From: a virus
Direction: 5' to 3' (one strand)
DNA length: 35,993 nucleotides
Virus genome (UHGV): UHGV-0194891
Position 1 is the first letter of the stretch; each line of letters begins with the position of its first letter. Under the pieces are notes generated by a model. It worked only from the letters and a program-made list of their open reading frames with translations. It searched no databases and was not told the origin of the DNA. Both the position numbers and the translations under genes were made by a program. Shown here one piece after another: positions 1-25,372 of the stretch.

Positions 1-2
1 AC

Positions 3-104
3 GGCGGATCTGTGCGTGGGATTTACAACCATGCTCAGTATCTCGATAAGCGCAGAGAAATGATGCAGTGGTGGGCGGACTGGATTGATGAAAAGGTAGA
101 GTGA
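3..104 (+). CDS. Tyrosine integrase, C-terminal fragment (5' end lies outside the window)
   Basis: Frame-3 translation reads ...GGSVRGIYNHAQYLDKRREMMQWWADWIDEKVE and stops at TGA 102-104. The YNxAQYL...MMQWWAD tail matches my recollection of P4-family integrase C-termini; not searched. Confidence 0.45.
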   Translation, partial: GGSVRGIYNHAQYLDKRREMMQWWADWIDEKVE

Positions 105-352
105 GCGACCTTAAACTATCGAATAGCACAAAGTCTTGCAATACAGTGCAAAGATTTGTGTGTCTCAGTTTTGTCTAAGTGTTCTACTAAAAACATAGTA
201 AAATCGGTAACGGCTGGAAATCATTCAATACTCGCACTATCGAAAGTTCACCAGCCAGCCGTGGCTCGTGCTTGCATACGACGTGCTGCGGTTTCATTTA
301 TCTCCGACCGGAAACTTCTTATACAGAGTCGATACGCCAACATCATAGATGA

Positions 353-487
353 TCGCCACCTTCTGGCGAAGAACTCCTGATGCAATATAATTCGTGGCTG
401 GATTATCTGGACGCACTGGAACTGGTCGATACTTCCGGTGCGCCAGATATTGAATGGCCTACGCCTCCGGCAGTTCAGGCCAGATGA
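353..487 (+). pseudogene. Truncated tail-fibre assembly (tfa') remnant, convergent with the intact tfa
   Basis: Plus-strand frame open only from 353 to TGA 485-487; ATG at 380. It encodes ...EELLMQYNSWLDYLDALELVDTSGAPDIEWPTPPAVQAR, which matches the conserved Tfa C-terminus (VDTSxAPDIEWP). Only about 44 codons remain. Confidence 0.45.
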
Positions 488-1061
488 CATCCTGCGCGGT
501 GCTGGTATCTGTTGCCGTCACCGCGTCAATGTAATCCAGCACAGCGTTAAGCTGGGTTGTTTCTGCCTGCGTCAGTTTCCGTCCGGCCTGTAATTTCAGC
601 TGAATCAGACTGATGGAAGCCATTGCAGCATCAATCAGTGACTTGCGCTGTGCTTCTGCCGCGTCTACTGCGGCGCTATGCTGTGCCTCAGTATCGGTTA
701 CCCATTTCTCACCATCCCATTTATCGTATGGCGTTAACGGGGCGATAGTGGTTGTATTTTCAGGGTAATCACCCGGAGCTTTGATTTCTTTTGATTCTCC
801 TGTTTCTGTGCTAAAGACGATTTCACCACGATGGTCTGGCACATATTCCCATGAGTTAAAATCTGCAGAACGGCAGATTGCATACCCAGTTTTGTATGAG
901 CCAGGAGCATCTAAACAGGAACATGCCGGAATGCCGACACCCACAGCAAGATATTCATTTGAAGTGGAAATATATTCCCGTGTTTCACCATCATAGTTAT
1001 AGACGGTAATATTCCCTGCCTTCGTGGCAATAATCTCGCTATTTAATACAGCGTTATCCAT
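459..1061 (-). CDS. tfa: Tail fibre assembly protein (Tfa)
   Basis: 200-aa ORF whose C-terminus (...LNAVLDYIDAVTATDTSTAQDVIWPELPEA) is the typical Tfa chaperone motif; lies immediately downstream of the tail-fibre gene. Confidence 0.8.
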   Translation of the reverse strand: MDNAVLNSEIIATKAGNITVYNYDGETREYISTSNEYLAVGVGIPACSCLDAPGSYKTGYAICRSADFNSWEYVPDHRGEIVFSTETGESKEIKAPGDYPENTTTIAPLTPYDKWDGEKWVTDTEAQHSAAVDAAEAQRKSLIDAAMASISLIQLKLQAGRKLTQAETTQLNAVLDYIDAVTATDTSTAQDVIWPELPEA

Positions 1062-1828
1062 TATGCAGCCCTCACAATATAATTAAAGGCAATGTTACGT
1101 GGGCGGTTCTCATTTGCGGTTGGGACAACGGCTGAAGCATTAAAATTCGCATACAGGGAGCGTTGATACCCGGATGCTGATGCACCACTTAATGCGGGAG
1201 CTTTTGACCCCGAAGCCGAAAAGGCCCCTGACACGTATCCTAATAACCCTTGTGAATCGCCAATTGAACTGTAGCCAACCACCCCGGTAATGTTTCGGAT
1301 AGCATCTCCTTGTGCTGAAAGCAGAGTTCGCCCACTATCCACTCCCTTTCCACCATCCCAGCCACGAATAAACTCACCGCGTAAATCAGGCAATTTTAAC
1401 GTCGGGTAAGCCTTTGCCAGATTAGGGTAATCTTCAGCAGAAAAAGCCGCACCGTTGCATTTCAGCCAGCCTGTTGGCGGTGTGGCTGAAGGCCATGGAA
1501 CAGGCACGCCAACGGGTAATGCCGAACCTTCTCCCAAACCAAGGTTTGTGGTAATCGCTGTCGCCAGCTTTGCCACCAGTCCATCAACGTCACCATCATC
1601 GAGCGCGTCCAGTTCGGCGTTCGCGATAAACTGCCCCAGTACAGCCGCCATCGTCGACGGTTGGCGCAGCGCTTTACTGACCTGTGCGCTGGATGCTTTA
1701 CCCGAGGAGAATCCTTTCTTCAGTGCGGTTAGCGTCTCCCATTCCTCCTGCGAGGTAACATTTGCATTAGCATCTGTCGCAAACGCTTTAAAATCATTAG
1801 TTCCAGCCATTAAAGTAATCTCCCCCAT
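1061..1828 (-). CDS. Tail fibre protein with tail-collar-like receptor-binding C-terminus
   Basis: 255-aa ORF; the GWLKCNGAAFSAEDYPNLAKAYPTLKLPDLRGEFIRGWDGG segment resembles the phage tail-collar domain; followed by tfa. Confidence 0.7.
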   Translation of the reverse strand: MGEITLMAGTNDFKAFATDANANVTSQEEWETLTALKKGFSSGKASSAQVSKALRQPSTMAAVLGQFIANAELDALDDGDVDGLVAKLATAITTNLGLGEGSALPVGVPVPWPSATPPTGWLKCNGAAFSAEDYPNLAKAYPTLKLPDLRGEFIRGWDGGKGVDSGRTLLSAQGDAIRNITGVVGYSSIGDSQGLLGYVSGAFSASGSKAPALSGASASGYQRSLYANFNASAVVPTANENRPRNIAFNYIVRAA

Positions 1829-2490
1829 GCGCCGTCATCAAAACCGGCGATGTATTCGTTATCCATGTCAAATCCAAAGAATTTTGTTCCTTCGGACGGT
1901 GTTTCGACCGAGGGTGTTTCAACGCCGCCAGCCCATACACCAGCAGCTTTAACGGTGAGATAACCCTGTTTGATAGCGGCTATCAGTTCGAGTGACACAT
2001 CAGAAATATCAGTCTCGGGAAAAACCCAGACCGATATCGTCATGTCCTGGTTATCGACGATCTGCATCTTCAGTCCAGAGCCTGCGGTAGCAGCATCAAG
2101 GATGGGAGGCAGAGAGTCGTTCCGACCATCCCAGTTGTTGATAGCGATTTTCGCTTTCAGAATGATGCGGTACGTCTCATCACTCAGCGTCGTATAGCCA
2201 GAATCAGGATCATATGGCCCTTGCCAGATGCCCTGGTCATATCCGAGCCCGTCAGTGTCCCAGCTGAAATAAACGCCGCTAATTGGCTGGCTGACTATAC
2301 GACTACGCCCAATCCACAGGCCGAGGATATCGAGTTGCACGCCAACCGCCGTATCGATATCGAAGGCTGTTACAAGCCCTGACATAGTGCTGGACACATC
2401 AATCAGCGGGCGGGTGCTCAGATCTATATGGTCAAAAAAGAGTGGCTTGGTAGCATGGTAGTTAGTGATCAGTTCGGTGTATTTGCTCAT
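1810..2490 (-). CDS. Baseplate or tail protein (Mu gp48 / gpI-like position)
   Basis: ORF 1810-2526; the likely start is the ATG at 2490 (MSKYTELITNYH...), which overlaps the upstream stop as ATGA. Placement is between the J-like baseplate gene and the tail fibre. Confidence 0.5.
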   Translation of the reverse strand: MSKYTELITNYHATKPLFFDHIDLSTRPLIDVSSTMSGLVTAFDIDTAVGVQLDILGLWIGRSRIVSQPISGVYFSWDTDGLGYDQGIWQGPYDPDSGYTTLSDETYRIILKAKIAINNWDGRNDSLPPILDAATAGSGLKMQIVDNQDMTISVWVFPETDISDVSLELIAAIKQGYLTVKAAGVWAGGVETPSVETPSEGTKFFGFDMDNEYIAGFDDGAWGRLL

Positions 2491-3686
2491 GAGGTCACCG
2501 TGATAGTGACGTGACTCGCAACGCATGACGCAGATTCGTCATAAGCAATATCGATATTTCCGCTTGCGACTGAGTCAGAGGATTTGCCGATGAGCAGCTC
2601 CTGAATGTCGTAATAGCGAGCACTGCCTCCGCTTACCACGCCAAGGTTTGCAGGGGAATAAATACGACTCAGCAGAACGTCATCGCCAATTGCCAGGCCA
2701 TTTATATAATCGGCAACAGCCTGTTTTATCTGCTCGCCGATTTGAGATGTATACCCGGTAAAAACTTTCAGGGTAATGGCTACAAAAATTGGCACATCGG
2801 TAGAACGCGAAAAACTGATGACGTGAGGATTACCGTAAGTATCCGGCACGGTGACAGAAGTTGTACCGTAAGTTGCGGTTCCCTGCCCTTTATTCCCCCT
2901 GATGGTCTGGGCTATTTCAGTAACATCCCCTCCCTCAACGATGGCGGAAATTGAATGCGGTGGCAACCCGTTGCTGTCGGTTGCTCCAGTATCATTTTCG
3001 TAGAGCTTGTGACGTGTCACGCCCGCAACGTTGGCGATCGCACCGTCGACGCCTTCAAACGGTGTGATCGATGATAGCGCTACGCTTTGCCCCTGCCGAA
3101 TGCGCAGCTCTGCGTCGGTTTCTGCTGGTGAACCGACAGTAGCCGCAGCCGGGTTGGTTACCGACACCCAGCCGCGAGTCGGTGTGTTAATGGTGGTGAT
3201 AGTCCCGGCCATCGCCGCAACCGAACCGCTATTCGCACATGTGGCCGTCACCAGCACAGTACCATCAACGTCGATCGCTACACTCGCTGGAAAATTCCAG
3301 ATTATGCCGTTTTTATCCCGTGCAGAACCATTCGAGATAGTCGTGCCTGCCGTACCGGTTAACAGAAGGTCAGCTGTAGAGTTTGTCGCTACTTTTCGCG
3401 TGATCCCGTTAATTTTCACATTGCTGCTAAGCGCTGCGGCCTGCGCTGTCGTCGGTGAAAAAGAGTTGTAGATCCCGATAGCGGTGTTGTTAGCGTCATG
3501 CACGGCAAGAGCCACCAGCGCGACCATCTGCCCGTCTTTGCTGTCTGGTTCGAGGTAGGCATCACTACCGTAAATCTGCCTGAAATAGCTGGTCAGTGTA
3601 TCTAGGATTGTCTGGTAATCAGGCGCACTAATCCCCTGGGCGGTTACCGTTGCCGATAGCCCCAGCGTGTCGAGGTTCAAAGCCAT
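2487..3686 (-). CDS. Baseplate J-like protein
   Basis: 399-aa ORF in the baseplate gene order (V-like, W-like, J-like, I-like, fibre); size and position fit the gpJ / Mu gp47 class. Confidence 0.6.
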   Translation of the reverse strand: MALNLDTLGLSATVTAQGISAPDYQTILDTLTSYFRQIYGSDAYLEPDSKDGQMVALVALAVHDANNTAIGIYNSFSPTTAQAAALSSNVKINGITRKVATNSTADLLLTGTAGTTISNGSARDKNGIIWNFPASVAIDVDGTVLVTATCANSGSVAAMAGTITTINTPTRGWVSVTNPAAATVGSPAETDAELRIRQGQSVALSSITPFEGVDGAIANVAGVTRHKLYENDTGATDSNGLPPHSISAIVEGGDVTEIAQTIRGNKGQGTATYGTTSVTVPDTYGNPHVISFSRSTDVPIFVAITLKVFTGYTSQIGEQIKQAVADYINGLAIGDDVLLSRIYSPANLGVVSGGSARYYDIQELLIGKSSDSVASGNIDIAYDESASCVASHVTITVTS

Positions 3687-4040
3687 TTATGCCTCGCTTG
3701 TTACAGTCGTCTGGCCGTAGATTGTGTCAATGGAGGAAGTGAAGGTGACGCGACGGCTGGTGCCGTCATAATTGGTATCGAAGGAAAGAATCGACAGAAC
3801 GCCCGGCGTGTCCTGTATGCGTTCGCGTATAGCCAGGATGTAGACGTCTGATCGCTGTTTACCAAGTACTGACTGAACATACGGTGTGCCTTCCGTCAGA
3901 TCGAGAAACCACTGACCGCGCCACAGTTCGAAACGGGTTTTTACGGCCTGTGCGACACACTCCGGACTGTCGATAAGGAAGGTGTCGTCACCCTGCCCGA
4001 AAGTGTAATCGCCGTCAGCATCTTCGCGACGGTATCGCAT
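3687..4040 (-). CDS. Baseplate wedge protein (gpW / gp25-like)
   Basis: 117-aa ORF between the V-like and J-like genes, the usual gpW position. Confidence 0.5.
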   Translation of the reverse strand: MRYRREDADGDYTFGQGDDTFLIDSPECVAQAVKTRFELWRGQWFLDLTEGTPYVQSVLGKQRSDVYILAIRERIQDTPGVLSILSFDTNYDGTSRRVTFTSSIDTIYGQTTVTSEA

Positions 4041-4043
4041 AGA

Positions 4044-4682
4044 TTAACCTCCCAGCGGCTTAGTATTGCTTCCGCCGCTCTCAACGCCGCCATGGGTATG
4101 CTTATCCACGATAGAACCGTCCACCAGCTGCAAGCGACCGTCAGGCAGGATTTTGAGCCCGTTAAGGTTGAATCCGCCCGGTGCAGTGCCATTTATTGCC
4201 CCACTGGATGGGTTAAGGCTTAACTTTGTGCCGCCGTCATCGCTGCGCAGCTCTACCGAACTGGTACTGATACCGCTGATTTTCTGTGCTTGCGACTGCG
4301 GGCCAACGATGGCGAACGCATCAGATAAATCATGCTGGCGCGGGTCGACTGTCTCCTGAACGCCGCCGCTCTGCCACCAGAAATCGATGCAACGGTCGGC
4401 AAAGATCAGCAGGCACTCGTCGCCTTCTTTAACCGGAAAGGTCAACGTGCAACCGCCGCCGCGCGGGAAGATGACAGGCACATCCACCAGCGGTTTTAAT
4501 TCGGTGGAACCATCGCCAACAATACCGCGAAGCGCCACCTCTACTGTGCAGGTGACAGTGTCAGGATCGAACGACTGAATGATACCTGGCATCGCTACGC
4601 GCATCTGGGTAGACACCGAATCGGCAATGGCCTGCGCGGTCTGCTGCTCACCGCCGATCTGTGATTGAGTTGGAATTGGCAT
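4044..4682 (-). CDS. Baseplate assembly protein V-like (spike)
   Basis: ORF 4044-4769; the likely start is the ATG at 4682 (MPIPTQSQ...), placed after the terminator hairpin. The PGIIQSFDPDTVTCTVEV...PVIFPRGGG pattern resembles gpV / Mu gp45. Confidence 0.6.
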   Translation of the reverse strand: MPIPTQSQIGGEQQTAQAIADSVSTQMRVAMPGIIQSFDPDTVTCTVEVALRGIVGDGSTELKPLVDVPVIFPRGGGCTLTFPVKEGDECLLIFADRCIDFWWQSGGVQETVDPRQHDLSDAFAIVGPQSQAQKISGISTSSVELRSDDGGTKLSLNPSSGAINGTAPGGFNLNGLKILPDGRLQLVDGSIVDKHTHGGVESGGSNTKPLGG

Positions 4683-4693
4683 AAAAACCCCAT

Positions 4694-4725
4694 AAAAAAA
4701 ACCCGCTCGGCGGCGGGTTTGTGTT
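4694..4725. terminator. Bidirectional intrinsic terminator between the moron cassette and the V-like gene
   Basis: Plus strand reads AAAAAAAA-cccgctcggcggcggg-TTTGTGTT. On the minus strand the hairpin CCCGC/GCGGG is followed by a run of eight U. Confidence 0.6.
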
Positions 4726-4726
4726 A

Positions 4727-5272
4727 TTAAATTCGCTTCATCTTTTCTGGGTGGAAATTGGGACACCAACTACACCCTTTACTTACTGCCAATGCTTGTA
4801 TTTGGTCAGCCAAACTAAATGGCAATTTATCGGACACTCCGCCTTCCCACCCCCTAAGTAAACGGCAAGGTAAAAGGTAGTTGCCCGGGTAGTTAGAAAC
4901 GCATTCGCAATAAGACTGCTGATTGTTGGCTTTTAGTGATCGAGCATAACATCCAAGAGAAGATGATAACTCCTGAACATTTACAACCAACTCACCGTTA
5001 ATAAAGGCTTGAACGCCAGTAATTCCATACACCAGATAACATAGGTTTGCAGCTCTTGATAGTTGATCAGGCGTTTTACTAAAGGACGCTAAATGGAATT
5101 TTTTCCCTGCTATCTCACCAATTTTATTTACATCTGAAAGCTCAGCAATGGCTACAGCCATTGGATAATTTTTTGCCGTCGAATGAGGAAAAACAATGGT
5201 GATTACAAAGTTATCATCATTTAGAGATGCCAGATCCAAAGGGCCAATAGTTGACAGTCCCTTACCTGCCAC
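4727..5272 (-). CDS. Hypothetical Cys-rich protein, low-GC moron gene
   Basis: 181-aa ORF abutting the upstream ORF; visibly AT-rich compared with flanking tail genes; Cys cluster near the C-terminus (CECVSNYPGNYLLPC, CSWCPNF). No family recognised. Confidence 0.55.
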   Translation of the reverse strand: MAGKGLSTIGPLDLASLNDDNFVITIVFPHSTAKNYPMAVAIAELSDVNKIGEIAGKKFHLASFSKTPDQLSRAANLCYLVYGITGVQAFINGELVVNVQELSSSLGCYARSLKANNQQSYCECVSNYPGNYLLPCRLLRGWEGGVSDKLPFSLADQIQALAVSKGCSWCPNFHPEKMKRI

Positions 5273-5617
5273 TCATTTCACCTTTATACAATCATAGGTT
5301 GCATACTGACGTGGTGCATTCATGCTGGCTTGCAGCCACTGGGCATTGAGAATTATCTTGCCGTTTCGATTGATGTACTCAAGACCAACCCATCTTCCAG
5401 GCTGATCGGTAGCCATACGCCAATCCATCTTGATATTGTTATAATCGCCTTTGTTTTTCAGGAAGGTGATTTTTTGCATTTCTGGCTTTGCGCCATTGAT
5501 TCTGGCTAAGCCATCATCTGCCCAATGGATTTTAAAATCACCACATTGCTGATCCGCAAAAGCGGGTGCTGATATAAGCACCGCGAACACGGTAACAGTG
5601 CAAAGTAAATGTCTCAC
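5273..5617 (-). CDS. Small secreted (periplasmic) protein, low-GC moron gene
   Basis: 114-aa ORF with a signal peptide (MRHLLCTVTVFAVLISAPAFA, then DQQ) and two Cys residues in the mature part; AT-rich. Confidence 0.6.
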   Translation of the reverse strand: MRHLLCTVTVFAVLISAPAFADQQCGDFKIHWADDGLARINGAKPEMQKITFLKNKGDYNNIKMDWRMATDQPGRWVGLEYINRNGKIILNAQWLQASMNAPRQYATYDCIKVK

Positions 5618-5629
5618 GGCCCCACCTCA

Positions 5630-6694
5630 CTAATTCGTCGTCCCTTGCATTGCTTTCGGGCTATAAAGATCACGAGCGCCACGCGCAAAACACATCAAAT
5701 CCATGTACCACGCCTGACCTCTGGTGTCGCCAGTATAGTCGATAGCTTTGACGATATAAACGCCATCTGTCGCAATGCTGGCAGCCTGTGACGTTGTGCC
5801 GGTCAGTGCGCGGTTGCCGTTCTCTTCCGTTTCAGTGATACGCCCGGGCGACTGTGCGATTTCGCTATTGCCGAGCGCGGCGCGGTACACCGAAGCCTGA
5901 TCGAGCTGGATAAGACCATTAATGCGGATGTTTGGGTTTATCAGGCACCGCACGTTTACGCCGCCGCCCATTGTCTGTTGCGGCATACCGATCAGGCCAG
6001 TATTGGCATTTAACACAATGGCTTCGTGAATATATTTATCCTCCGGCACCATCTGGACCTGTCCATCCACCAGCTGCCATGTCGCTTTGCACTGCGCAGC
6101 AATATTATCCATCACGTTACGGGTGGATGAGTAAATCGCGCGGCCACGAGGAAACACAGTATCAGGAAAGTCGCCGGTAATGCCCTGCGTCACGCCGAAC
6201 GCGTTGAAATCCTGCATCGTCGCCCGGTGCAGATCCGCAACGGTATAGCCAGCGGCAAGCGTGGTGATGGTGGTCGCATAAAGGAACGCTTCGTGATCAC
6301 CAATAGCCTGAATCAACACCCAGGAATCGGTAATGTTGTCCTTCCCGGTGACGGTGAAGCGAATATCACCGTCAAAAATCAGGCCGTAGTTCTGACCGTT
6401 CACCTGCCCTATCTGGTCTGGTGAAATCTCCCGGGCTACACCAACCTGGCTCGCATCAACATCCGGCGCTATACCGTCATACCCGGCAATGATGCGAATT
6501 TTGGCAAACTCCTGCCCCAGTATCTTGTTCGTGGTATCGGTCGAAAGGTTGTAAATTTTCACGTTTGCCACGCGCGGCCAGCGTGTATCTGCCCACTCGA
6601 TCTGGAACGTGACTTTAAAGTCAGACAGGGAAATACCCTGCCCGTTCTGGTCCAACAGCTGCAACTCAAAATGGCGCATCCAGTTAAGAGACAT
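5630..6694 (-). CDS. Baseplate hub-like tail protein
   Basis: 354-aa ORF between the tape-measure-proximal genes and the baseplate V-like gene; assigned by position only. Confidence 0.45.
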   Translation of the reverse strand: MSLNWMRHFELQLLDQNGQGISLSDFKVTFQIEWADTRWPRVANVKIYNLSTDTTNKILGQEFAKIRIIAGYDGIAPDVDASQVGVAREISPDQIGQVNGQNYGLIFDGDIRFTVTGKDNITDSWVLIQAIGDHEAFLYATTITTLAAGYTVADLHRATMQDFNAFGVTQGITGDFPDTVFPRGRAIYSSTRNVMDNIAAQCKATWQLVDGQVQMVPEDKYIHEAIVLNANTGLIGMPQQTMGGGVNVRCLINPNIRINGLIQLDQASVYRAALGNSEIAQSPGRITETEENGNRALTGTTSQAASIATDGVYIVKAIDYTGDTRGQAWYMDLMCFARGARDLYSPKAMQGTTN

Positions 6695-6696
6695 TT

Positions 6697-7038
6697 CTAC
6701 TCCTGTACGAAAATGAGGTGGCTGTATGTGCCGAGGTTGGTTTTGGTTGGCTCGTCCGGTGCGCCCTTATCGGTCGCCACCACCAGCGCGCCATCAATGC
6801 CAAGCTGTGGATATTGTCGTAATAGGTTCACGCCGGTCAGGAGAGGTACGCCAGAAAGAAGCGCAGCACCGCCGCTATCCATCACGTCCATGATCCAGCC
6901 AGCCGCATCGCGCCAGATGATCCTGAGCGTATAGGTGGTATTGCCCAGCAAAACGCGGAACTGCTGATTGTCAGGAGAAAGCGGTATTTCGTTAAACTGC
7001 ATATCATCCCCCGAATGCTGATGTAACGCTTCCGCCAA
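6697..7038 (-). CDS. Hypothetical tail protein
   Basis: 113-aa ORF; the start may instead be the internal ATG near 7002. Tail-module position. Confidence 0.4.
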   Translation of the reverse strand: MAEALHQHSGDDMQFNEIPLSPDNQQFRVLLGNTTYTLRIIWRDAAGWIMDVMDSGGAALLSGVPLLTGVNLLRQYPQLGIDGALVVATDKGAPDEPTKTNLGTYSHLIFVQE

Positions 7039-7606
7039 GCTGGCTCAGCAAGGATTCGTTTGGCGGTGTAGTGGATTTCGTCCCGGAATTTTGCACCGCC
7101 GATGTGCTGACGCCATCCTGCATATCTGATTTATCAGCAACACTAACGCTCTGCGTTTGCGACATGATCACTTCACGCAGGGTAAGCGTGCAGTTCAGCA
7201 CGTTTTCGCTGGTTTTGTCCGTTGTCACCTCGATGGCTCGCACCAGCATATTGCTGTACACCCGCTTTCCGGTCACCACATCGAACGGCACCCGAGAGGA
7301 CTGGAGATCCAGCAGTTGCTGATAGGTCTCTTTCGGGCTTAGTCCGGCGCTGAGGCCGATTGAAGATGTATCAATGAAGTCCAGCAACGAACCGCCACCA
7401 GCGAAGCCGCATTCCATTGTGACTTCGCTGGGGCGCTTATACGCATGATCGGCGATGAAGCCCGAAGCGCTATTCGTTGTTGGCTTCTCCACCGGGTGCT
7501 CAGTAATTTCGAGCGCATCAGAATGCTTTTCGGAGACGACCACGCTGGGGATCAGCAGGCCAATTCGCCGGGATTGCTGGCGAAAAATCGCTGATAAAAT
7601 ATCCAT
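7004..7606 (-). CDS. Tail protein downstream of tape measure
   Basis: 200-aa ORF whose start abuts the tape-measure stop. Confidence 0.45.
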   Translation of the reverse strand: MDILSAIFRQQSRRIGLLIPSVVVSEKHSDALEITEHPVEKPTTNSASGFIADHAYKRPSEVTMECGFAGGGSLLDFIDTSSIGLSAGLSPKETYQQLLDLQSSRVPFDVVTGKRVYSNMLVRAIEVTTDKTSENVLNCTLTLREVIMSQTQSVSVADKSDMQDGVSTSAVQNSGTKSTTPPNESLLSQLGGSVTSAFGG

Positions 7607-9873
7607 TATCTCGGTCCTGCGGGGAGTTGCTGGGTTAACTGTGAATTCACGCCCTTTTGACGATCAACAGTCAAACGGGCAGCCTCGCGCGGATCGGAAA
7701 CGCCGTGGATGTTAATATTCGTTTCCTGCTGAATCACCGGGGCGCTGGTGGGCATGTTGCTCATTACTTTCGGAATGTAGTTACGCGTTTCCTGCGGCAT
7801 TAACCCCATGCCATAGCGCTTAACATTCCCGATCCCCCAGTTATATGATGCCAGTGCTTTGCTAAGGTCTCCACCGTTCTGCCGCAACAGCTGGCTGAGG
7901 TACTTAGCTGCGGCCTGAGCTGACTTTTGCGGGTCGAATACATCGTTTCCGCGAAGGCCCATGTCGCGCGCCGTGCCATCCATAAACTGAAACAGTCCTT
8001 TCGCGCCTGCGCCGGATATGGCGAACTGATTACCACCCGACTCGGTGATCGCCACGCTTTTCAACAGACCAGCAGGCAACTGATAAAGCGACTCCAGTTT
8101 ATTGAACATTGGCCCCATCCAGTCGAGCAAAACCTTGCCCTGCGCTGTGGCTTGTGGGCGTTTAACTGATTGCGCAAACTGGGAGGGGTCACCCGATATA
8201 TTTGGAGAGATTTCAGCAGCACCAGCCGGTGAGAAAAGTAAATTACCGATTTTGGCAATCCCGTCTGAGATCTTTTCAAGATAACCATTAGCAGCCTGCT
8301 GTCGGTTTTTTATTTCATCTCTTTCATGCGGGGCAATTTCATTACTACGAACATGCTGTTCCGCCCCGGGAATGTCAGGCTGAACATTATCGCCATAAAC
8401 GACGCCATTGCTTTGCGCCTGACGAATAATCTTACCTGGGCCACCATGCAGCCAATCCATCCATGCGGGCCATTCTCTTACCTCGCTAACATCTTTTCGC
8501 CCAAGGTCGGTTTTGATGCCAACCGTAGCAAGAGCATCACCAATGTTCCTTTTGGTATAGTCCAAAGATGATTTAGCACTGGCTTTTATGTTTTCACGAT
8601 CTGAAACCAGGTAACCAGCATACACTCCCCATAATTTAAGCCATGGAGGTATCGGAAGACCGGATATTTTTGCGAATGCTCCTAATACTTTTGTTACCCA
8701 TACCCCTGCGATGAAGGTAGCCAAAATTTCCAGCGAGCTCTGCCACCCACCGACAGAATCTTTTAGCCCCAGCAGCTTATCGCGCAGCCAGAGAATTGCC
8801 TTTTTCGCCTTTTCTATTGCTGGCTTCCACTTGCTCCAGTCAATCAGGCTTTTGCCCCCCTCTTTCCACGTCTGGTAATCGTCATAGAGTAATCCGATCG
8901 CCAGAATCAGCGTGGTGATCAGGCCAATAGGGGATTTCAGGAACGCAGAATTAAGCAGACGCCATGCGACCAGAAGAGCACCGAATATTTTCAGCAGATT
9001 TTTACTGCCATCATCCAGACGCTTCCACCAGTCAATGACAGAGCCAGCGCCCTGTATCAGCCGCCACGCCATTCTCGTGAATGCGTTTGCAAGCCAGATC
9101 ACGCCCTTAACAACTTTTGTCAGCGTCTCTTCAATCTTCGGGAAATTGTCGAGGATGCGCCGCCGCAGGCTGTCCAGCGAACCAGCCAGACCACCAGCGA
9201 GATTTGAGCCGATCTTGTCCCGCATAATGCCGAACAGCGACGTAAGCCCGCGCATGGAGGTCATGAATTTATTGGACTGAACAGCCGCTTTATCAGCGTT
9301 GAAACCCGTCTTTTGCAGCATCGACTGGTAATCGGCGGTAAAGCCATTCATGCCGCGCCGCATCGCCATCAGCGTGTTTTCATCGATGCCGAGCATCTGC
9401 GCGTATTGCTTCGCGCGGTAATACGGCATGTTGTTGAGCTTTTGCCCAACGCCAGTAAAGATGGCAGCAGTATCACGCATCTTTCCGCTGGCATCGCGGG
9501 TCTGGACACCAAGACGGTTCAGGAACCCTTCCGCCCCCGGATTGCTACGCATAAAGCCAGCCAGCCCTTCGAGGGAGGACATGGCCGACTCAGCGCTGGC
9601 ACCGGTTTGCGATGCGGCATAGCCCAGCGCTTTGATGCCCTGGACGCTGGCCCCCGTCCGCTGGGATGCCCAGTAAATTTTATCCAGACCATTCGCGATC
9701 TGGGTGGTAAATCCGACAATGCTCAGCGCTGCGCCTTCCACCACCGCGCCGACCTTCAGAACGTTCGCGGTAACGCCTTTCAGCACGGCTTCAAACTTAT
9801 TAGCGCCAGCCTGATCGATATCGAATCCCAGCGAAACAAGGAAGTCTTTAATCGTATCTGCGTTACCGCTCAT
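7606..9873 (-). CDS. Tail tape measure protein with C-terminal lytic transglycosylase (SLT) domain
   Basis: 755-aa ORF with long helical and hydrophobic stretches. The C-terminal part carries ...ITESGGNQFAISGAGAKGLFQFMDGTARDMGL...ASYNWGIGN, the SLT catalytic signature (ES...GLFQ...Y.G). Confidence 0.8.
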   Translation of the reverse strand: MSGNADTIKDFLVSLGFDIDQAGANKFEAVLKGVTANVLKVGAVVEGAALSIVGFTTQIANGLDKIYWASQRTGASVQGIKALGYAASQTGASAESAMSSLEGLAGFMRSNPGAEGFLNRLGVQTRDASGKMRDTAAIFTGVGQKLNNMPYYRAKQYAQMLGIDENTLMAMRRGMNGFTADYQSMLQKTGFNADKAAVQSNKFMTSMRGLTSLFGIMRDKIGSNLAGGLAGSLDSLRRRILDNFPKIEETLTKVVKGVIWLANAFTRMAWRLIQGAGSVIDWWKRLDDGSKNLLKIFGALLVAWRLLNSAFLKSPIGLITTLILAIGLLYDDYQTWKEGGKSLIDWSKWKPAIEKAKKAILWLRDKLLGLKDSVGGWQSSLEILATFIAGVWVTKVLGAFAKISGLPIPPWLKLWGVYAGYLVSDRENIKASAKSSLDYTKRNIGDALATVGIKTDLGRKDVSEVREWPAWMDWLHGGPGKIIRQAQSNGVVYGDNVQPDIPGAEQHVRSNEIAPHERDEIKNRQQAANGYLEKISDGIAKIGNLLFSPAGAAEISPNISGDPSQFAQSVKRPQATAQGKVLLDWMGPMFNKLESLYQLPAGLLKSVAITESGGNQFAISGAGAKGLFQFMDGTARDMGLRGNDVFDPQKSAQAAAKYLSQLLRQNGGDLSKALASYNWGIGNVKRYGMGLMPQETRNYIPKVMSNMPTSAPVIQQETNINIHGVSDPREAARLTVDRQKGVNSQLTQQLPAGPR

Positions 9874-10105
9874 TGGCCGCTCTCCATTTATCTACCCGGG
9901 CGTCGTTATCCTCGCGCATGTCGAGGTAGTCATTGAGAAGCGCGATGCGGCAGAGGTCTACCGCACCGCTGTTAAGGTCTTTCTGGTCAATATGGAAGGC
10001 AAGCGCCGGACGAAGAATAAAATCTTCACCGCCCGGCAGGCTGTTGAAGGTTATTCCGCTGGCGGGGTAGGCGTCTCGCTGGTAGGGAGTCCTTGCAAAA
10101 AATTT
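9863..10105 (-). CDS. -1 frameshift extension of the tail assembly chaperone (GT-like product)
   Basis: Slippery AAATTTT at 10099-10105 (minus strand) in zero-frame context GGA AAT TTT. The -1 frame is then open for 78 codons (FARTPYQRDAYPASG...KWRAANER) to TAA 9863-9865, filling the gap before the tape measure. Confidence 0.55.
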   Translation of the reverse strand, partial: KFFARTPYQRDAYPASGITFNSLPGGEDFILRPALAFHIDQKDLNSGAVDLCRIALLNDYLDMREDNDARVDKWRAANER

Positions 10106-10476
10106 CCCAGCGAGTCGGCGACCACCCGCGCCACCAGTTGCAGCATGGTCAGCAGGTCGATATCGTCAAACGCCATTTCGCCATGCTGGCAGACCGGCAC
10201 CCAGCCTTTCATGTGCTCGCGTGAAACAACGGAAAGGCAGGGGAACAGGATAGCGTCCACGTCGCCATCGCTCAGATCGGACACAGCATTGGCAATCTTT
10301 GGCAGGATGGTAGCCATCGCGCCTTCGGTGTCTTTGCTGCTGATCTTCTCCTGAACGCTCCGAAAGTCAGAAACCATCCCGGCCAGCACCGGCAACAGCT
10401 TGCGGGACACCTTCAGCTGTTCGAAAACGCTGAGCTTTGCGGTGCGATATTTCACGCCTTTAATTTCGAATTCCAT
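10051..10476 (-). CDS. Tail assembly chaperone (G-like)
   Basis: 141-aa ORF between the tube gene and the tape measure; has a slippery heptamer near its 3' end (next feature). Confidence 0.6.
   Translation of the reverse strand: MEFEIKGVKYRTAKLSVFEQLKVSRKLLPVLAGMVSDFRSVQEKISSKDTEGAMATILPKIANAVSDLSDGDVDAILFPCLSVVSREHMKGWVPVCQHGEMAFDDIDLLTMLQLVARVVADSLGNFLQGLPTSETPTPPAE
10099..10105 (-). other. Programmed -1 ribosomal frameshift slippery heptamer (AAATTTT)
   Basis: Canonical X XXY YYZ heptamer in the zero frame (GGA AAT TTT) about 15 codons before the chaperone stop; the -1 frame stays open to the tape-measure start. Confidence 0.55.
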
Positions 10477-10479
10477 GCG

Positions 10480-10920
10480 TTAAAACTCCCCGAGCAGCTG
10501 GTCAATCTTGCCGCAGTCGAACACCCAGGAAACAGTACCGCCCTCTTTGGCGTTATTGAAATCAGGCTGTTTCTGGAATGCACACGAACGCGCAGTAGAA
10601 ATATCACCCGATGCCGTGTTGCGAATGACGATCACGTTATTGCCCCAGGTGGCAGAGGACTGGCTTTGCGCGTTATACGCCAGAGACAGCTTTTTATTCA
10701 CCGGGGAGGTTTTGAGTAGCGTCACCGTAATGGTGCCTGACTTATCGGCGTGCAGGCTGTGCATCACCTCGCCATCGGCACCGATGGTCATGGTGTTTTT
10801 GTTGCCGCCCATGGTCTGGGTGATACCTTCCTCAGAGTTCGCAGAACCCTGACCAAGATCGATAACGCCGGTCGGCCCGGTGAGCGACGCGGTTACATCA
10901 AGAAAAGAATAAGTTGCCAT
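10480..10920 (-). CDS. Tail tube protein
   Basis: 146-aa ORF between the sheath-like gene and the chaperone; size and position fit a myovirus tube protein. Confidence 0.55.
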   Translation of the reverse strand: MATYSFLDVTASLTGPTGVIDLGQGSANSEEGITQTMGGNKNTMTIGADGEVMHSLHADKSGTITVTLLKTSPVNKKLSLAYNAQSQSSATWGNNVIVIRNTASGDISTARSCAFQKQPDFNNAKEGGTVSWVFDCGKIDQLLGEF

Positions 10921-10930
10921 TTATCGCTCC

Positions 10931-12091
10931 TTAGCGAACCACGTTGATCTGCACATCGGCATAATGAACTGCGCCAGCCAGCTTACAGGCCACCTGGATT
11001 AACGGTGCTTTGCGCGCTTCGCGGTCGGCCTGCGCCTGTTCGGACAGAGGTTGCGCATACACGTAATAACCTTTGGTCAGCGTATCGCCGGAATTCAGCT
11101 GTCCGATAGGGCCACCATTCCACACGCCAGCCGCTACCAGACCGTTCGTGACGGACTGATCCATGGACTGTTCAACGTTGGAAAGCAGACGGGTCACACC
11201 GGCGTCAGTCTGCGGAATTTTGGTGGTGCTGGTGTAAAGCAGGTTATAGAGATTGGTCTGAACGTAGTTCTGCAACCAGTCGAGCCCGTGGCGCTCGTCG
11301 AAGAAGTCACCGTTCGCCATGACACCCTGTTGCAGGATCGCCGTGTCGTTGGCGTAGTACACGAACACGTTCGCATTCTTCGCATCCACAGCCGCCGCCT
11401 GGCCTACCGTCAGCGTTTCGTAGGTTACGCTCGGTTCCTGTTTGAATTTCAGGGTAATGGTGGTATTGCTGCCGTTGAAATTGACAGTAAACGCGCGACC
11501 GAAAGCTGAAACCGCTGCATAAGGGCTGCTGGTGGAATATTGAATAAAGGTACGGGCATACTTGCCAGCCTTTAATTTCGACGCAACATCGGTCGTCGAA
11601 GTCGTGCTGATAATCTCGGCGTCGGCAGAGGTTACCCCGAAAATGCGGCTAAGACTGGACGCTTCGATGAGTTTAGCAACCTCAATCACGTCGTCAGCAT
11701 CAAGCACATCACCGCCATCAGCAACTTCATCAGCGACAACCAGCCCATACCAGTTGGTATATTGCAGGCAGGCATTAACAGCTTGCACAATGGTTTCCAC
11801 GCTTCCACCTTCGGAAGAAGTCAGCGTCTTCGCCCAGCGGCCAACATAAACCTGCGTCGGCTTCGGCGACTGGCTGAAGAAAACCTGCGCCGCTTCATAT
11901 TCCGGGCTGTCGACACCGAAGTCTTCGCCAATGTCCTCAACGGAAGCATATAGGCGAGTACGTTCTGTCACCGGAATGACAGTGGAAGAGCCAAGGATTA
12001 GCAATGCGCCGAAGTTACGACCAGTAGCCGCTTTCGGCGAGATGATCACATCAACGTTTACAACGTTGGATACAGGTAAGCCCTGCGTCAT
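10931..12091 (-). CDS. Tail sheath-like protein
   Basis: 386-aa ORF directly upstream of the tube gene; assigned by position and size, no motif recognised. Confidence 0.5.
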
Positions 12092-12094
12092 AGT

Positions 12095-12703
12095 TTATTC
12101 TCCAAAAAAGGTGACTGGCACTTCCACCAGCGATTTGATGCCATACTCGCGGACAACCTTCCGGCGCAGTCGCACCGTCATGTCGTAACGGCGAACCCAT
12201 TGCTGGTTGATAAGTTCGGGGAAAGGGGTCAGAGCGGTATAGTCGCCAAGGGATAAACCAAGCGCGTTCAGCTCAGCATTGTTTTGCGGGACAGATATAC
12301 CATCGCGAAAACGGGACGCATAAGACATACCAGCCGGACCATAGAACGACGCCATGCACTCGAACGTTTCATGCCTCCAGAGCTGAGCGCCCTCTTCAGT
12401 CTGCCCGGTGAATGCAGGGTTGTTATCAATGAGCAACCCGGTAACGCCAAACGCGCACCAGTTCGTTTCAACGGGTGGCAGTGGCGGCTGATTTTTCTGC
12501 CAGCGCGGACGAACCATTCCAGACGGCAAGCCGGAAACGTTACGCATCCACTGGCTTAACAGCCTGTCGAGCGCTTCGTCATAATCCGGATCGCCACTGG
12601 TTGGTATCAGCCAGCCGCGCTCTGTGCTGGTGTTATTGCTCAACCGGAATTCCCCCATCAAACGGCAGCAACTCACAATGCGCCTGAACGAATCCGGCAC
12701 CAT
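12095..12703 (-). CDS. Hypothetical virion protein (head-tail joining or tail completion region)
   Basis: 202-aa ORF in a compact, overlapping gene series between capsid and sheath. Confidence 0.45.
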   Translation of the reverse strand: MVPDSFRRIVSCCRLMGEFRLSNNTSTERGWLIPTSGDPDYDEALDRLLSQWMRNVSGLPSGMVRPRWQKNQPPLPPVETNWCAFGVTGLLIDNNPAFTGQTEEGAQLWRHETFECMASFYGPAGMSYASRFRDGISVPQNNAELNALGLSLGDYTALTPFPELINQQWVRRYDMTVRLRRKVVREYGIKSLVEVPVTFFGE

Positions 12704-13022
12704 ACGCTGTATACGGGTCGACGAAAGTCACACGATAATCACGGCCCTGATACGTCACGATATCGGCATCACGGCCAGTCTGTCCCTGCGTCAGTCGCTC
12801 AGTCGTCACAATCAGAATTGCACCACTGATTACCTGCCCGGCCTGCATACGACGGTTTTCCAGAGAGCGATCAACAGTTACGTCTCCGGCAAACTGCGTT
12901 TTAACTTCACTGTCGCTGCCGATCCCGTCATCGTCCACCGTTTGCACGCGACGCGTTACCCACAGGTTGAAGTCGCAAAAATCGGGGTCAAAAAGTACGT
13001 CCGTCACATCAAGATTCGGCAT
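12633..13022 (-). CDS. Hypothetical virion protein
   Basis: 129-aa ORF in the head-tail connector region. Confidence 0.4.
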   Translation of the reverse strand: MPNLDVTDVLFDPDFCDFNLWVTRRVQTVDDDGIGSDSEVKTQFAGDVTVDRSLENRRMQAGQVISGAILIVTTERLTQGQTGRDADIVTYQGRDYRVTFVDPYTAYGAGFVQAHCELLPFDGGIPVEQ

Positions 13023-13563
13023 CTTTATCCCTCACAACGTGGGTAATGGCTCTGCGATATTGCCCGGTGTCAATTAATGGTTTCACCAGATCGGTTCCGG
13101 GGAGCTCGCCAGCAACACGCCGGGCAAGTTCCAGTGTTGCCCCCTTGCGCCCCCGACGAGCCCGGGCTTCAACAGTGCTGTCAGCAAGCGGCGTAAAGCC
13201 GGTAATAGTCATGTAACGCCTGACGCCATTAGCGGCCAGCGTTCCGGCGCGGTTGAGCGATCTTTCCGCACCCGCCGCATTACCATCAAGCGCAGCCTGC
13301 GCCGCTGCTTTAAGCTGCGGCACTGTCTGTTCCTCTACCGATTTAACGCCGGGGATCAGGTGCGGGCGTGGGGGGATGTTTTGCGCTGGTGAGCCGTATT
13401 CGTTGACGTAACCGATCCCGGCATTACCAAACGGAACATCCTCACGCTCGCTGTCTTCTTCCGGGATGCCCACCAGCACTTCTTTTTTACCGATGGATTT
13501 GAGCGCATCCAGAATGGCCTGAGCGTTATCCACCCTCGTTGTCACACCGCTTTTGAAACTCAT
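13009..13563 (-). CDS. Hypothetical virion protein
   Basis: 184-aa ORF in the head-tail connector region. Confidence 0.45.
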
Positions 13564-14322: not shown

Positions 14323-14363
14323 TTTCAGTTCCCTTCTGGCCCCTTTCGGGGCCGTTCTGGTTA

Positions 14364-15305: not shown

Positions 15306-15316
15306 TCGTCTGTTCC

Positions 15317-15820: not shown

Positions 15821-15824
15821 TGGA

Positions 15825-17045: not shown

Positions 17046-17059
17046 GGTTTACCTGCGAT

Positions 17060-22629: not shown

Positions 22630-22653
22630 AAAAAAAACCCCGCATCGCGAGGC
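22630..22653 (-). terminator. Intrinsic terminator-like hairpin downstream of Rz/Rz1
   Basis: Minus-strand RNA gccucgcgaugcgggg followed by a run of eight U; 6-bp stem with one G-U pair. Confidence 0.4.
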
Positions 22654-24748: not shown

Positions 24749-25372
24749 CTAACGTGTGACCGCATTCAAAATGTTGTCTGCGATTGACTCTTCCTTGTGG
24801 CATTGCACCACCAGAGCGTCATACAGCGGCTTAACAGTGCGTGACCAGGTTGGTTGGGTAAGGTTGGGTATTAGCATCGTCACAGCGCGATATGCGGCGC
24901 TTGCTGGCATTCTTGAATAGCCGACACCTTTGCATCTTCCGCATTCTTTCTCAACAACTCTCCCCCACAGCTCTGTTTTTGATATATCAACCGCACGGCC
25001 TGTACCGTGGCAATCTCTGCACCTTGCTCCCGGCGTCGCGGCACTACGGCAATAATCCGCATAAGCGAATGTTGCGAGCACTTGCAGTACCTTTGCCTTA
25101 GTATTTCCTTCAAGCTTTGCAACGCCACGGTATTTCCCCGATACCTTGTGTGCAAATTGCATCAGATAGTTGATGGCTTTTTGTTTGTCATTCTGGCTGA
25201 GTTCGTGCTTACCACAGAACGCAGCCATTCCAAATCCGGCTTGTGATTGCGCCATCCCCATAGCAGCCATCACATCAGTACCGGAAAGAGAGTCAGAAGC
25301 CGTAGCCCGTGGTGAGTCGCTCATCATCGGGCTTTTTGGCGAATGAAATTTAGCTACGCTTTCGAGTCTCAT
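24749..25372 (-). CDS. Q: Late antiterminator Q (lambda Q type)
   Basis: 207-aa product MRLESVAKFHSPKSPMMSDSPRATASDSL...CRDCHGTGRAVDISKTELWGRVVEKECGRCKGVGYSRMPASAAYRAV... matches lambda Q as I recall it essentially end to end. Confidence 0.9.
   Translation of the reverse strand: MRLESVAKFHSPKSPMMSDSPRATASDSLSGTDVMAAMGMAQSQAGFGMAAFCGKHELSQNDKQKAINYLMQFAHKVSGKYRGVAKLEGNTKAKVLQVLATFAYADYCRSAATPGARCRDCHGTGRAVDISKTELWGRVVEKECGRCKGVGYSRMPASAAYRAVTMLIPNLTQPTWSRTVKPLYDALVVQCHKEESIADNILNAVTR

What the first reader, a model, noticed from the sequence alone, without database searches (positions are those of the whole stretch)
4694..5629. Low-GC two-gene moron with its own terminator inserted inside the baseplate gene cluster
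Between a baseplate gene (5630-6694) and the V-like spike gene (4044-4682) lie two co-oriented ORFs that are clearly more AT-rich than everything around them. One encodes a small secreted protein (cleavable signal peptide, two Cys), the other a 181-aa protein with a C-terminal Cys cluster. A strong hairpin plus U-run terminator (4694-4717) sits only about 10 nt upstream of the V-like start. That architecture (foreign composition plus a private terminator within an operon) is the classic moron pattern. A periplasmic product suggests lysogenic conversion (virulence, envelope modification) or superinfection exclusion rather than virion assembly.
Basis: partly seen in the sequence, partly recalled or inferred. 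Interest (0 to 1): 0.6.

Follow-up and report, generated by a model that had tools for sequence, protein, structure and literature searches.

The report
Prophage tail-gene accessory slot with secreted protein
Between two baseplate genes of a lambda-like prophage lies a low-GC accessory locus: a secreted protein gene found in nearly all ~100 relatives examined, a swappable cargo slot (here a 181-aa Cys-rich protein) and a conserved terminator; this is an ordinary kind of phage "moron" site, but its proteins are uncharacterised.

Summary
There are two co-oriented minus-strand ORFs, ORF-A (5273-5617, 114 aa) and ORF-B (4727-5272, 181 aa). Their GC is 0.44 and 0.42, against 0.54-0.57 for the flanking hub and spike genes. 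A hairpin with a T-run lies at 4694-4720.

In about 100 related loci the order is hub, ORF-A, variable slot, terminator, spike.
- ORF-A was found between hub and spike in every locus that included both flanks.
- The terminator is present in all 26 slot-class representatives inspected, including empty slots, and its stem shows compensatory changes.
- ORF-B is one of at least 24 alternative cargoes. Others include Phd/Doc, DUF4236, EACC1 and PDC-S42.

ORF-A has a signal peptide, an avidin-like beta-barrel model and two invariant Cys. Its mature part is under purifying selection (dN/dS 0.09). It carries one hypervariable hairpin, reassorts independently of the baseplate genes, and forms tandem arrays in two prophages.

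Distant ORF-B relatives sit in prophage repressor operons. The window encodes a Q antiterminator, which fits moron logic.

I infer lysogen-phase accessory roles, perhaps periplasmic superinfection exclusion. No promoter and no function have been shown. This is a new member of a known kind, of moderate interest.

The parts
5630..6694 (-). Baseplate hub gene, the conserved upstream flank of the accessory locus
   Evidence: phrog_196 baseplate hub, E 8e-83, and a weak PF22759 E217_GP41 hit. Found upstream of ORF-A in all related loci with enough flank, directly adjacent in most.
5732..5760 (-). Candidate sigma-70 promoter (TTTATA-17-TATACT) inside the 3' end of the hub gene. Inferred only.
   Evidence: Consensus scan gave 9 of 12 matches, but the number of such hits is not above chance. 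The surrounding ~110 nt of hub is nearly invariant, synonymous sites included, in 76 distinct sequences, and TATACT is retained even where hub is only 59-71% identical. This stretch could equally be a recombination anchor.
5555..5617 (-). ORF-A signal peptide (residues 1-21, predicted cleavage AFA|DQ)
   Evidence: Read directly from the sequence. The family keeps the hydrophobic core and the -1 Ala while the sequence drifts. dN/dS is 0.66 here against 0.09 in the mature part. AF2 pLDDT is about 50 over residues 1-20.
5273..5554 (-). ORF-A mature domain plus stop codon: 93 residues, predicted periplasmic 8-stranded beta-barrel, invariant C25 and C110
5516..5539 (-). Hypervariable hairpin of ORF-A (residues 27-34), the likely specificity determinant
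   Evidence: This is the only high-entropy stretch of the mature protein, and it includes an indel hotspot, across 69 distinct family members (alignment). It is also the part that differs most between tandem paralogues in L015.
4727..5272 (-). ORF-B: 181-aa cytoplasmic cargo protein with an alpha/beta N-domain and a C-terminal Cys cluster (C108, C122, C136, C167, C170; GCxWCPNF motif)
   Evidence: phrog_16260. 371 family representatives at E <= 1e-3. No hit in Pfam, NCBIfam, PADLOC or PDB. Present in only one of 24 slot classes.
4691..4720 (-). Intrinsic terminator (stem 4720..4699 plus T-run) at the downstream boundary of the slot, directly before the spike RBS and ATG
   Evidence: Present in the representatives of every cargo class and in the empty slots. 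96% of cells are paired, 4 of 7 pairs show changes on both sides, and 0 of 500 shuffles reach the observed value.
4044..4682 (-). Membrane-piercing spike gene, the conserved downstream flank
   Evidence: PF18352, E 1e-41, plus the PF18946 Apex motif.
24749..25372 (-). Q-type late antiterminator. It would let late transcription read through the terminator at 4691-4720.
   Evidence: PF03589 Antiterm, E 1e-57. The lambdoid context includes holin, lysozyme and Rz, cII, O, NinB, an S24 cI-like repressor and an N peptide.

Best explanation
The locus is a three-part accessory site built into the hub-spike junction of SEN34-like (Brunovirus-like) lambdoid myoviruses.

1. ORF-A is a lineage-wide but non-structural gene. 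It encodes a Sec-exported, probably disulfide-bonded, avidin-like beta-barrel protein.
2. Directly after ORF-A lies a recombination hotspot that holds different cargo in different phages. In this window the cargo is ORF-B.
3. A conserved intrinsic terminator closes the unit just before the spike gene.

How it probably works (inferred): late transcription by Q-modified RNA polymerase reads through the terminator, so tail genes are still made. Any Q-independent transcript that starts upstream, possibly at a promoter embedded in the end of the hub gene, expresses ORF-A and the cargo and stops at the terminator. That would give expression in the lysogen without tail-gene expression.

Probable roles (inferred):
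- ORF-A is probably a periplasmic binding protein whose hypervariable hairpin sets its specificity. It may act as a superinfection-exclusion or immunity-type factor against incoming phages with this kind of tail tip, or against another periplasmic threat.
- ORF-B is a cytoplasmic protein, possibly metal-binding through four invariant Cys. Its family otherwise rides in prophage repressor operons. I therefore read it as a lysogeny-phase accessory function, either defence or regulation.

What is shown and what is inferred: the gene order, conservation, composition, terminator covariation, selection, reassortment and tandem arrays are shown. Export, promoter activity, lysogen expression and both functions are inferred.
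For: Architecture:
- The order hub, ORF-A, slot, spike holds in ~100 loci. Slot length ranges from 62 to 1801 bp. There are 24 slot sequence classes plus an empty form.
- Cargo includes DUF4236, EACC1, Fic/Doc with Phd, a P22 antirepressor domain, several secreted or membrane proteins, and the candidate defence gene PDC-S42 (E 2e-36).
- The terminator is present in every class representative and shows covariation.

Composition: over 88 complete loci, mean GC is 0.528 for hub, 0.462 for ORF-A, 0.413 for the slot and 0.561 for spike. ORF-A is below hub in 81 of 88 loci. The slot is below hub in 86 of 86.

ORF-A is accessory rather than structural:
- Its pairwise identity correlates only weakly with each of the ten structural neighbours tested (r 0.18-0.35). 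Most adjacent structural genes correlate at 0.65-0.94 with each other, including hub with spike across the slot; the wedge-fibre pair is the exception (r 0.19).
- Adjusted mutual information is 0.88 for hub versus spike, but 0.39 for ORF-A versus hub and 0.42 for ORF-A versus cargo.
- ORF-A dS is about 1.0-1.2 against 0.27 for hub.
- Tandem arrays occur: 7 copies in Serratia aquatilis and 4 in Pseudescherichia vulneris.
- In the solved E217 baseplate, hub gp41 binds tip gp43 directly, and gp42 is never mentioned in the main text.

Export: signal-peptide features, relaxed selection on that segment, and invariant Cys near both ends of the mature chain.

Read-through logic: a Q antiterminator is encoded in the window.

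ORF-B:
- Close homologues in Serratia and Cronobacter sit in the same slot.
- Distant homologues overlap the 3' end of an HTH_3 (cI-like) gene next to recombinase and RecT genes in five contigs. One lies next to an S24 peptidase and an integrase. One lies after the annotated repressor of a Bordetella phage.
Against: - No promoter is demonstrated. The only candidate lies in coding sequence, and promoter-like matches are at or below the number expected by chance.
- ORF-A starts 12 nt after the hub stop codon and has a strong Shine-Dalgarno sequence. It may therefore be made only with the late operon.
- ORF-A is found only with this tail module. That would also fit a role in the phage's own cycle.
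- Neither protein hits any PADLOC defence model.
- ORF-A allele types do not track spike, tape-measure or fibre types, so no target is indicated.
- The ORF-B model is poor over the Cys-rich half (pLDDT about 40-55), so metal binding is conjecture.
Confidence: 0.6

Rival explanations
1. Late-only reading. ORF-A and the cargo are transcribed only as part of the Q-dependent late operon. The hairpin would then be an attenuator or insulator that tunes expression of the downstream spike and wedge genes, or an mRNA-stabilising 3' structure, rather than the end of a lysogen-expressed unit. ORF-A would act during lytic growth, for example by blocking re-adsorption or superinfection of the dying cell, or by protecting progeny.
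For: ORF-A follows the hub gene after 12 nt and has its own Shine-Dalgarno sequence. No promoter signal exceeds chance. The tandem arrays carry a single terminator at their end and no evident internal promoters. The terminator is fixed even where the slot is empty.
Against: Several cargo types are ones generally regarded as acting in the uninfected or lysogenic cell, such as Phd/Doc, an antirepressor with an Arc-like gene, and PDC-S42; that view rests on general knowledge. Some are on the opposite strand and must have their own promoters. The ORF-B family otherwise sits in repressor operons. The 3' end of hub shows unusual synonymous-site conservation around a TATACT hexamer.
Confidence: 0.22
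2. ORF-A is a structural or assembly component of the baseplate, for example a small adaptor or chaperone between hub and spike. Its hydrophobic N-terminus would not be a cleaved signal peptide.
For: It occupies a constant position between hub and spike in all relatives, is found only with this tail module, and is closely spaced with the hub gene.
Against: It reassorts independently of hub and spike, which co-vary with each other across it. Low GC persists across the family. The N-terminal 21 residues behave like a signal peptide and evolve almost freely. Two Cys are invariant. Copy number ranges from 1 to 7. In the E217 baseplate, hub contacts tip directly and the product of the intervening gene is not mentioned.
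Confidence: 0.08
3. One reading: ORF-A and ORF-B form a single horizontally acquired two-gene cassette with a private terminator.
For: The two genes abut, share low GC, and are followed by one terminator. The same pairing also occurs in Serratia and Cronobacter prophages.
Against: ORF-A and the terminator are present in nearly all relatives, while ORF-B is in the window plus 5 of the loci tested. ORF-A and ORF-B reassort: in L059, ORF-A is 70% identical and ORF-B 99%. Adjusted mutual information between ORF-A type and cargo class is 0.42.
Confidence: 0.04
4. ORF-A is a host-interaction factor unrelated to phage. Examples would be a periplasmic lysozyme or protease inhibitor of the PliC/MliC or serralysin-inhibitor type, or a ligand-binding avidin-like protein. 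That would make it true lysogenic conversion.
Confidence: 0.06

Closest known systems
Lambdoid morons (lambda bor and lom; HK97 gp15 superinfection-exclusion moron in the tail gene cluster). Concept from Juhala/Hendrix, reviewed in PMC3594210.
   Same: Extra, AT-rich genes lie inside the Q-antiterminated late operon of a lambdoid phage and end in an intrinsic terminator. From my own knowledge, HK97 gp15 is a tail-cluster moron that blocks DNA entry by related phages.
   Different: Here one gene (ORF-A) and the terminator are fixed across the whole lineage, and only the space between them varies. No promoter is shown. ORF-A is predicted to be a soluble periplasmic barrel, not a membrane protein, and has no sequence similarity to these proteins.
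Variable hotspots of anti-phage systems in P2-like prophages and P4-like satellites (Rousset et al. 2022, PMC9122126)
   Same: Conserved flanks bracket a slot holding many unrelated, low-GC cargo cassettes. These include toxin-antitoxin and candidate defence genes (Phd/Doc, PDC-S42, EACC1).
   Different: The phage lineage and the position differ (the hub-spike junction of SEN34-like lambdoid myoviruses). The slot is bounded by a constant secreted-protein gene and a constant terminator. Most cargo here matches no catalogued defence system.
T4 Spackle (Sp), a periplasmic inhibitor of the tail-tip lysozyme gp5 (recalled from my own knowledge, not tested here)
   Same: It is a small signal-peptide protein encoded by a myovirus whose tail tip carries a peptidoglycan-degrading activity. 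In this window the tape-measure gene carries an SLT domain, according to the RefSeq annotations. Spackle is a functional analogue for periplasmic exclusion.
   Different: No sequence or fold relationship: from memory, Spackle is helical, whereas ORF-A is modelled as a beta-barrel. Spackle is an early gene of a virulent phage. Inhibition of any lytic enzyme by ORF-A is untested.
Tab/anti-Tab (PMC10884400) and Tai/Ati (PMC11364771) prophage defence modules
   Same: These are moron-type defence genes embedded in or beside late structural operons. Each is paired with a gene that is transcriptionally coupled to the late operon.
   Different: Those proteins are cytoplasmic and block tail assembly, and they sit near the terminase or packaging genes. 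ORF-A is exported, and its partner cargo is interchangeable. I made no sequence comparison because their sequences were not at hand.
Avidin/streptavidin-type (calycin) 8-stranded beta-barrels
   Different: Scores fall below the level that implies homology, and each matched stretch is non-significant on its own. The Pfam Avidin model is not matched. Biotin-binding residues were not verified.

Membership tests
Moron (independent accessory transcription unit in a phage late operon) | The gene is present in some phages and absent at the same position in close relatives | tested here: met
   Met for ORF-B. It is in the window and 5 of the related loci tested, and is replaced by 23 other cargo classes or by nothing. 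Not met for ORF-A, which is present in essentially all relatives.
Moron (independent accessory transcription unit in a phage late operon) | Nucleotide composition differs from the flanking phage genes | tested here: met
   GC is 0.44 for ORF-A and 0.42 for ORF-B, against 0.54-0.57 for the flanks. The same holds across 88 loci.
Moron (independent accessory transcription unit in a phage late operon) | Own downstream terminator | tested here: met
   The hairpin plus T-run at 4691-4720 is conserved with covariation. It belongs to the locus as a whole, not to the ORF-B cassette.
Moron (independent accessory transcription unit in a phage late operon) | Own promoter active in the lysogen | tested here: inconclusive
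   There is one candidate, TTTATA-17-TATACT, inside the hub gene. Its region is unusually conserved at synonymous sites. Promoter-like hits are not above chance. Expression cannot be tested with these tools.
Prophage hotspot of defence or accessory systems | Conserved flanking genes with many unrelated cargo cassettes between them | tested here: met
   24 slot sequence classes plus an empty form lie between ORF-A and the terminator. Cargo assorts independently of the backbone.
Prophage hotspot of defence or accessory systems | Cargo includes recognised defence or conflict systems | tested here: met
   Phd/Doc pairs (Fic/Doc, E 1e-13), EACC1 and PDC-S42 (E 2e-36). ORF-B itself and most other cargo match nothing in PADLOC.
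Baseplate structural proteins of E217/Pam3-type simple baseplates | Co-evolves with neighbouring baseplate proteins and is present in the virion | tested here: not met
   ORF-A identity correlates at r 0.18-0.35 with structural neighbours, which mostly correlate at 0.65-0.94 with each other. The product of the intervening E217 gene is not mentioned in that virion structure paper. Virion content of this phage cannot be tested here.
MliC/PliC or serralysin-inhibitor type periplasmic inhibitors | Match to the family profile or fold | tested here: not met
Avidin family | Significant profile match and the biotin-binding Trp, Tyr and Asn residues | tested here: inconclusive

The most novel reading that the evidence does not exclude
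ORF-A would found a new family of phage-encoded periplasmic immunity or exclusion proteins. Each member would be an avidin-like barrel whose single hypervariable hairpin recognises variable parts of the tail tip (spike or tape-measure) of incoming SEN34-like myoviruses. That would explain three observations: alleles are ancient and swapped between otherwise identical phages; some prophages stack 4-7 diversified copies; and the gene never leaves this tail module. The adjacent slot would be a previously undescribed defence hotspot. ORF-B would be one of its unknown single-gene systems, from a family of at least 371 clusters that is otherwise co-transcribed with prophage repressors.
Probability: 0.3. 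Interest if true: 0.65.

Novelty: new member of a known kind. Interest (0 to 1): 0.45.

Why it matters
Morons and prophage hotspots are well known, so the kind of element is not new. What this analysis adds is a precise map of one such site in a widespread group of enterobacterial lambdoid myoviruses, those related to SEN34, Mulock and Omnitron.

- The site has clean boundaries: the ORF-A stop codon on one side and a covarying terminator on the other. These could be used to harvest cargo genes systematically.
- It brings out two sizeable protein families with no known function. ORF-A (phrog_3443) has features typical of specificity-diversifying binding proteins. The ORF-B family (phrog_16260, at least 371 clusters at 50% identity) is repeatedly wired into prophage repressor operons.

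If either protein proves to be an exclusion or defence factor, it would be a new mechanism that is directly testable by simple plating assays.

Tried and rejected
- Profile libraries: Pfam, NCBIfam and PADLOC gave nothing for ORF-A or ORF-B, whether queried singly or as family alignments.
- PDB profile search: nothing for ORF-B, and only a weak avidin hit for ORF-A.
- Rfam: only a sub-threshold Trp_leader match (26.8 bits against a gathering score of 41), caused by the terminator hairpin. Rejected as chance.
- Promoter scans in the window and in the two tandem arrays gave counts at or below chance.
- Target search by co-variation: I looked for a partner of ORF-A among tape-measure, Dit, plug, hub, spike, gp25-like, J, wedge, fibre and fibre-assembly proteins. 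None stands out (r 0.18-0.35; AMI 0.28-0.39 for the seven of them clustered).
- Tab/anti-Tab and Tai/Ati: I read both papers to see whether this is one of those systems. The positions and cell compartments differ, and no sequences were at hand for a comparison.
- The SEN34 paper contains no virion proteomics.
- The TTG-extended ORF 4044..4769 runs through the terminator. It is a mechanical artefact; the real spike start is the ATG at 4682.
Full report
**What is there.** On the minus strand the gene order is:
- hub, 5630-6694
- ORF-A, 5273-5617 (114 aa)
- ORF-B, 4727-5272 (181 aa; its GTG start abuts the ORF-A stop codon)
- a hairpin with a T-run, 4691-4720
- spike, 4044-4682

The hub matches phrog_196 and, weakly, E217 gp41. 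The spike carries PF18352 and an Apex motif. The genes upstream are a Pam3-type plug and a Dit-like protein. GC drops to 0.38-0.46 across the two ORFs, against 0.53-0.58 outside them. Per gene, the values are 0.44 and 0.42 against 0.54 and 0.57.

**Comparative anatomy.** An E. coli prophage (strain LR-33) carries the same pair at 99.8% identity. Other E. coli prophages keep only ORF-A and carry something else before the spike gene: a 53-aa ORF, a DUF4236 gene on the opposite strand, or a Phd/Doc pair. Citrobacter phage Omnitron has an ORF-A homologue followed by a different 128-aa secreted protein.

I fetched 92 further loci using the ORF-A alignment, 12 from genomes and 80 from viral contigs.
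- In every locus with enough flank, ORF-A lies between hub and spike. It is directly after hub in all but a few loci, including the two arrays and L016.
- The distance from the ORF-A stop codon to the spike ATG ranges from 62 to 1801 bp.
- The slot sequences fall into 24 unrelated classes plus an empty form.

Cargo classes include the following:
- DUF4236 (18 loci)
- two unrelated secreted proteins (8 loci each)
- an EACC1-domain protein on the opposite strand (8)
- ORF-B (6)
- a transmembrane protein with a Mu-F-like Cys-rich tail (6)
- Phd/Doc (5 + 4)
- a pair including a weakly HEPN-like protein
- a P22-type antirepressor with an Arc-like gene
- multi-pass membrane proteins
- the candidate defence gene PDC-S42

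The same layout is annotated in the isolated phages Klebsiella Mulock and Salmonella SEN34. SEN34 was described as lambda-like in genome but a myovirus in shape (PMC5261728).

**The terminator belongs to the lineage, not to the cargo.** The 75 nt before the spike ATG contain a G+C-rich hairpin and a T-run in the representative of every cargo class, and in the two loci with an empty slot. On 27 distinct sequences:
- 96% of cells are paired;
- 4 of 7 stem pairs show changes on both sides;
- loop sequences differ;
- no shuffle (0 of 500) and no slid register reaches the observed value.

It is the only canonical minus-strand terminator found in 1-20000, which covers most of the late operon. The ancestral unit is therefore hub, ORF-A, terminator, spike, and cargo enters between the ORF-A stop codon and the hairpin.

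**ORF-A.**
- Distribution: 79 homologue clusters; all that carry a source name are from Enterobacterales.
- N-terminus: the first 21 residues look like a Sec signal peptide with an A-x-A site. They evolve almost freely (dN/dS 0.66), whereas the mature part is strongly constrained (dN/dS 0.09).
- Invariant residues: C25 and C110.
- Variability: within the mature protein, variation is concentrated in residues 27-34, which also hold an indel hotspot.

ORF-A behaves as an accessory cassette.
- Its GC is below hub in 81 of 88 loci.
- Its synonymous divergence between loci is about four times that of hub.
- It has 23 types at 90% identity, against 10 for hub.
- Its identity correlates poorly with every structural neighbour (r 0.18-0.35). 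Most adjacent structural genes correlate at 0.65-0.94 with each other, including hub with spike across the slot.
- Adjusted mutual information is 0.88 for hub versus spike, but 0.39 for ORF-A versus hub.
- Two prophages carry tandem arrays of diversified copies: seven in Serratia aquatilis (one frameshifted, and the array interrupted by a transposase gene) and four in Pseudescherichia vulneris. In the Serratia array the copies differ mainly in the signal peptide and the hypervariable hairpin. Each array ends in the single terminator.
- In the cryo-EM structure of phage E217, hub gp41 binds tip gp43 directly. The product of the gene between them is not mentioned in the main text (PMC10329688).

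**ORF-B.**
- Close relatives: only six clusters. Those in Serratia and Cronobacter sit in the same slot, directly after an ORF-A homologue.
- Wider family: an exhaustive profile search finds 371 representative clusters. The family shares an alpha/beta N-domain, four invariant Cys (C108, C122, C136, C170) and a GCxWCPNF-type motif.
- Nothing matches in Pfam, PADLOC, NCBIfam or PDB.
- The model is good only for the N-domain, and its fold matches are generic.
- Context of distant members is consistent. In five contigs the gene overlaps the 3' end of an HTH_3, cI-like gene, divergent from recombination genes and next to a recombinase. In one genome it precedes an S24 peptidase beside an integrase. 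In Bordetella phage IFTN2 it follows the annotated repressor.

The family is therefore typically placed where it would be transcribed with the repressor, that is, in the lysogen. This is inference from position.

**How the locus would work.** The window is a lambdoid prophage. It encodes a Q antiterminator, holin, lysozyme and Rz, cII, O, NinB, an S24 cI-like repressor and an N peptide. Q-modified polymerase would ignore the hairpin. A Q-independent transcript would stop there.

The only promoter candidate, TTTATA-17-TATACT at 5732-5760, lies in the last part of the hub gene. That ~110-nt stretch is almost invariant, even at synonymous sites and even in distant relatives. This could equally reflect its role as the recombination boundary, and promoter-like matches are no more frequent than chance. 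Lysogen expression therefore remains unproven. The late-only rival keeps about 0.2 probability.

**Verdict.** The unit is better described as a fixed secreted-protein gene plus a cargo hotspot plus a fixed terminator, with ORF-B being one interchangeable cargo. The kind of element is known (morons; prophage hotspots, PMC3594210 and PMC9122126). The site and both protein families are, as far as these tools and the searched literature show, uncharacterised.

I rate the architecture as well supported. The exclusion or defence functions are plausible guesses, about 0.3.

Noticed in passing
L015 394-5282 (Serratia aquatilis, NZ_CP173186) and L011 629-2846 (Pseudescherichia vulneris): Tandem arrays of 7 and 4 diversified ORF-A paralogues lie between hub and spike. 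In L015 the copies differ mainly in the signal peptide and the hypervariable hairpin. That array is interrupted by a 402-aa transposase-like ORF (3261..4469, opposite strand), and one copy is frameshifted.
   Followed up: partly
window 32314-33722 (+): Directly downstream of, and co-oriented with, the S24 cI-like repressor (31410-32114) are a DUF6932 protein (159 aa) and a 310-aa protein with no Pfam hit. This is the position lambda uses for rexAB, so they form a second likely lysogen-expressed accessory pair in the same prophage.
   Followed up: no
window 4044-4682 compared with relatives (e.g. L002 3260-4000, L001 3441-4181): The spike gene exists in two forms: 212 aa here and about 246 aa in many otherwise near-identical prophages. 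The forms are about 67% identical overall and appear to diverge mainly in the C-terminal part. The tip domain is therefore itself mosaic.
   Followed up: no
window 5620-5760 (3' end of hub gene): About 110 nt of hub coding sequence is nearly invariant, synonymous sites included, across 76 distinct sequences. The last ~15 hub codons, by contrast, switch between unrelated variants. This looks like a recombination boundary, and possibly an embedded promoter.
   Followed up: partly
L102-L108 (metagenome prophage contigs): Distant ORF-B homologues recur in a conserved module: serine recombinase, RecT or YqaJ with DUF3799, then a divergent HTH_3 gene plus the ORF-B-like gene, followed by small response-regulator-domain genes on the opposite strand. 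This is an uncharacterised type of lysogeny-control region.
   Followed up: partly
PMC10329688 (phage E217): E217 also has a gene (gp42) between hub gp41 and tip gp43 that is never mentioned in the main text of the virion structure paper. A non-structural gene at the hub-spike junction may therefore be older than the enterobacterial lineage. No sequence comparison was made.
   Followed up: no
window 4693-4774 (-): Sub-threshold Rfam match to Trp_leader (26.8 bits against a gathering score of 41). It is explained by the terminator hairpin and T-run and is not a real leader.
   Followed up: yes
window 21962-22516 and 26203-26925 (-): There are two Rha-domain regulatory genes. One is fused to a KilAC antirepressor domain. 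The other lies between the lysis genes and the terminase gene, next to a strong terminator at 22635-22655.
   Followed up: no
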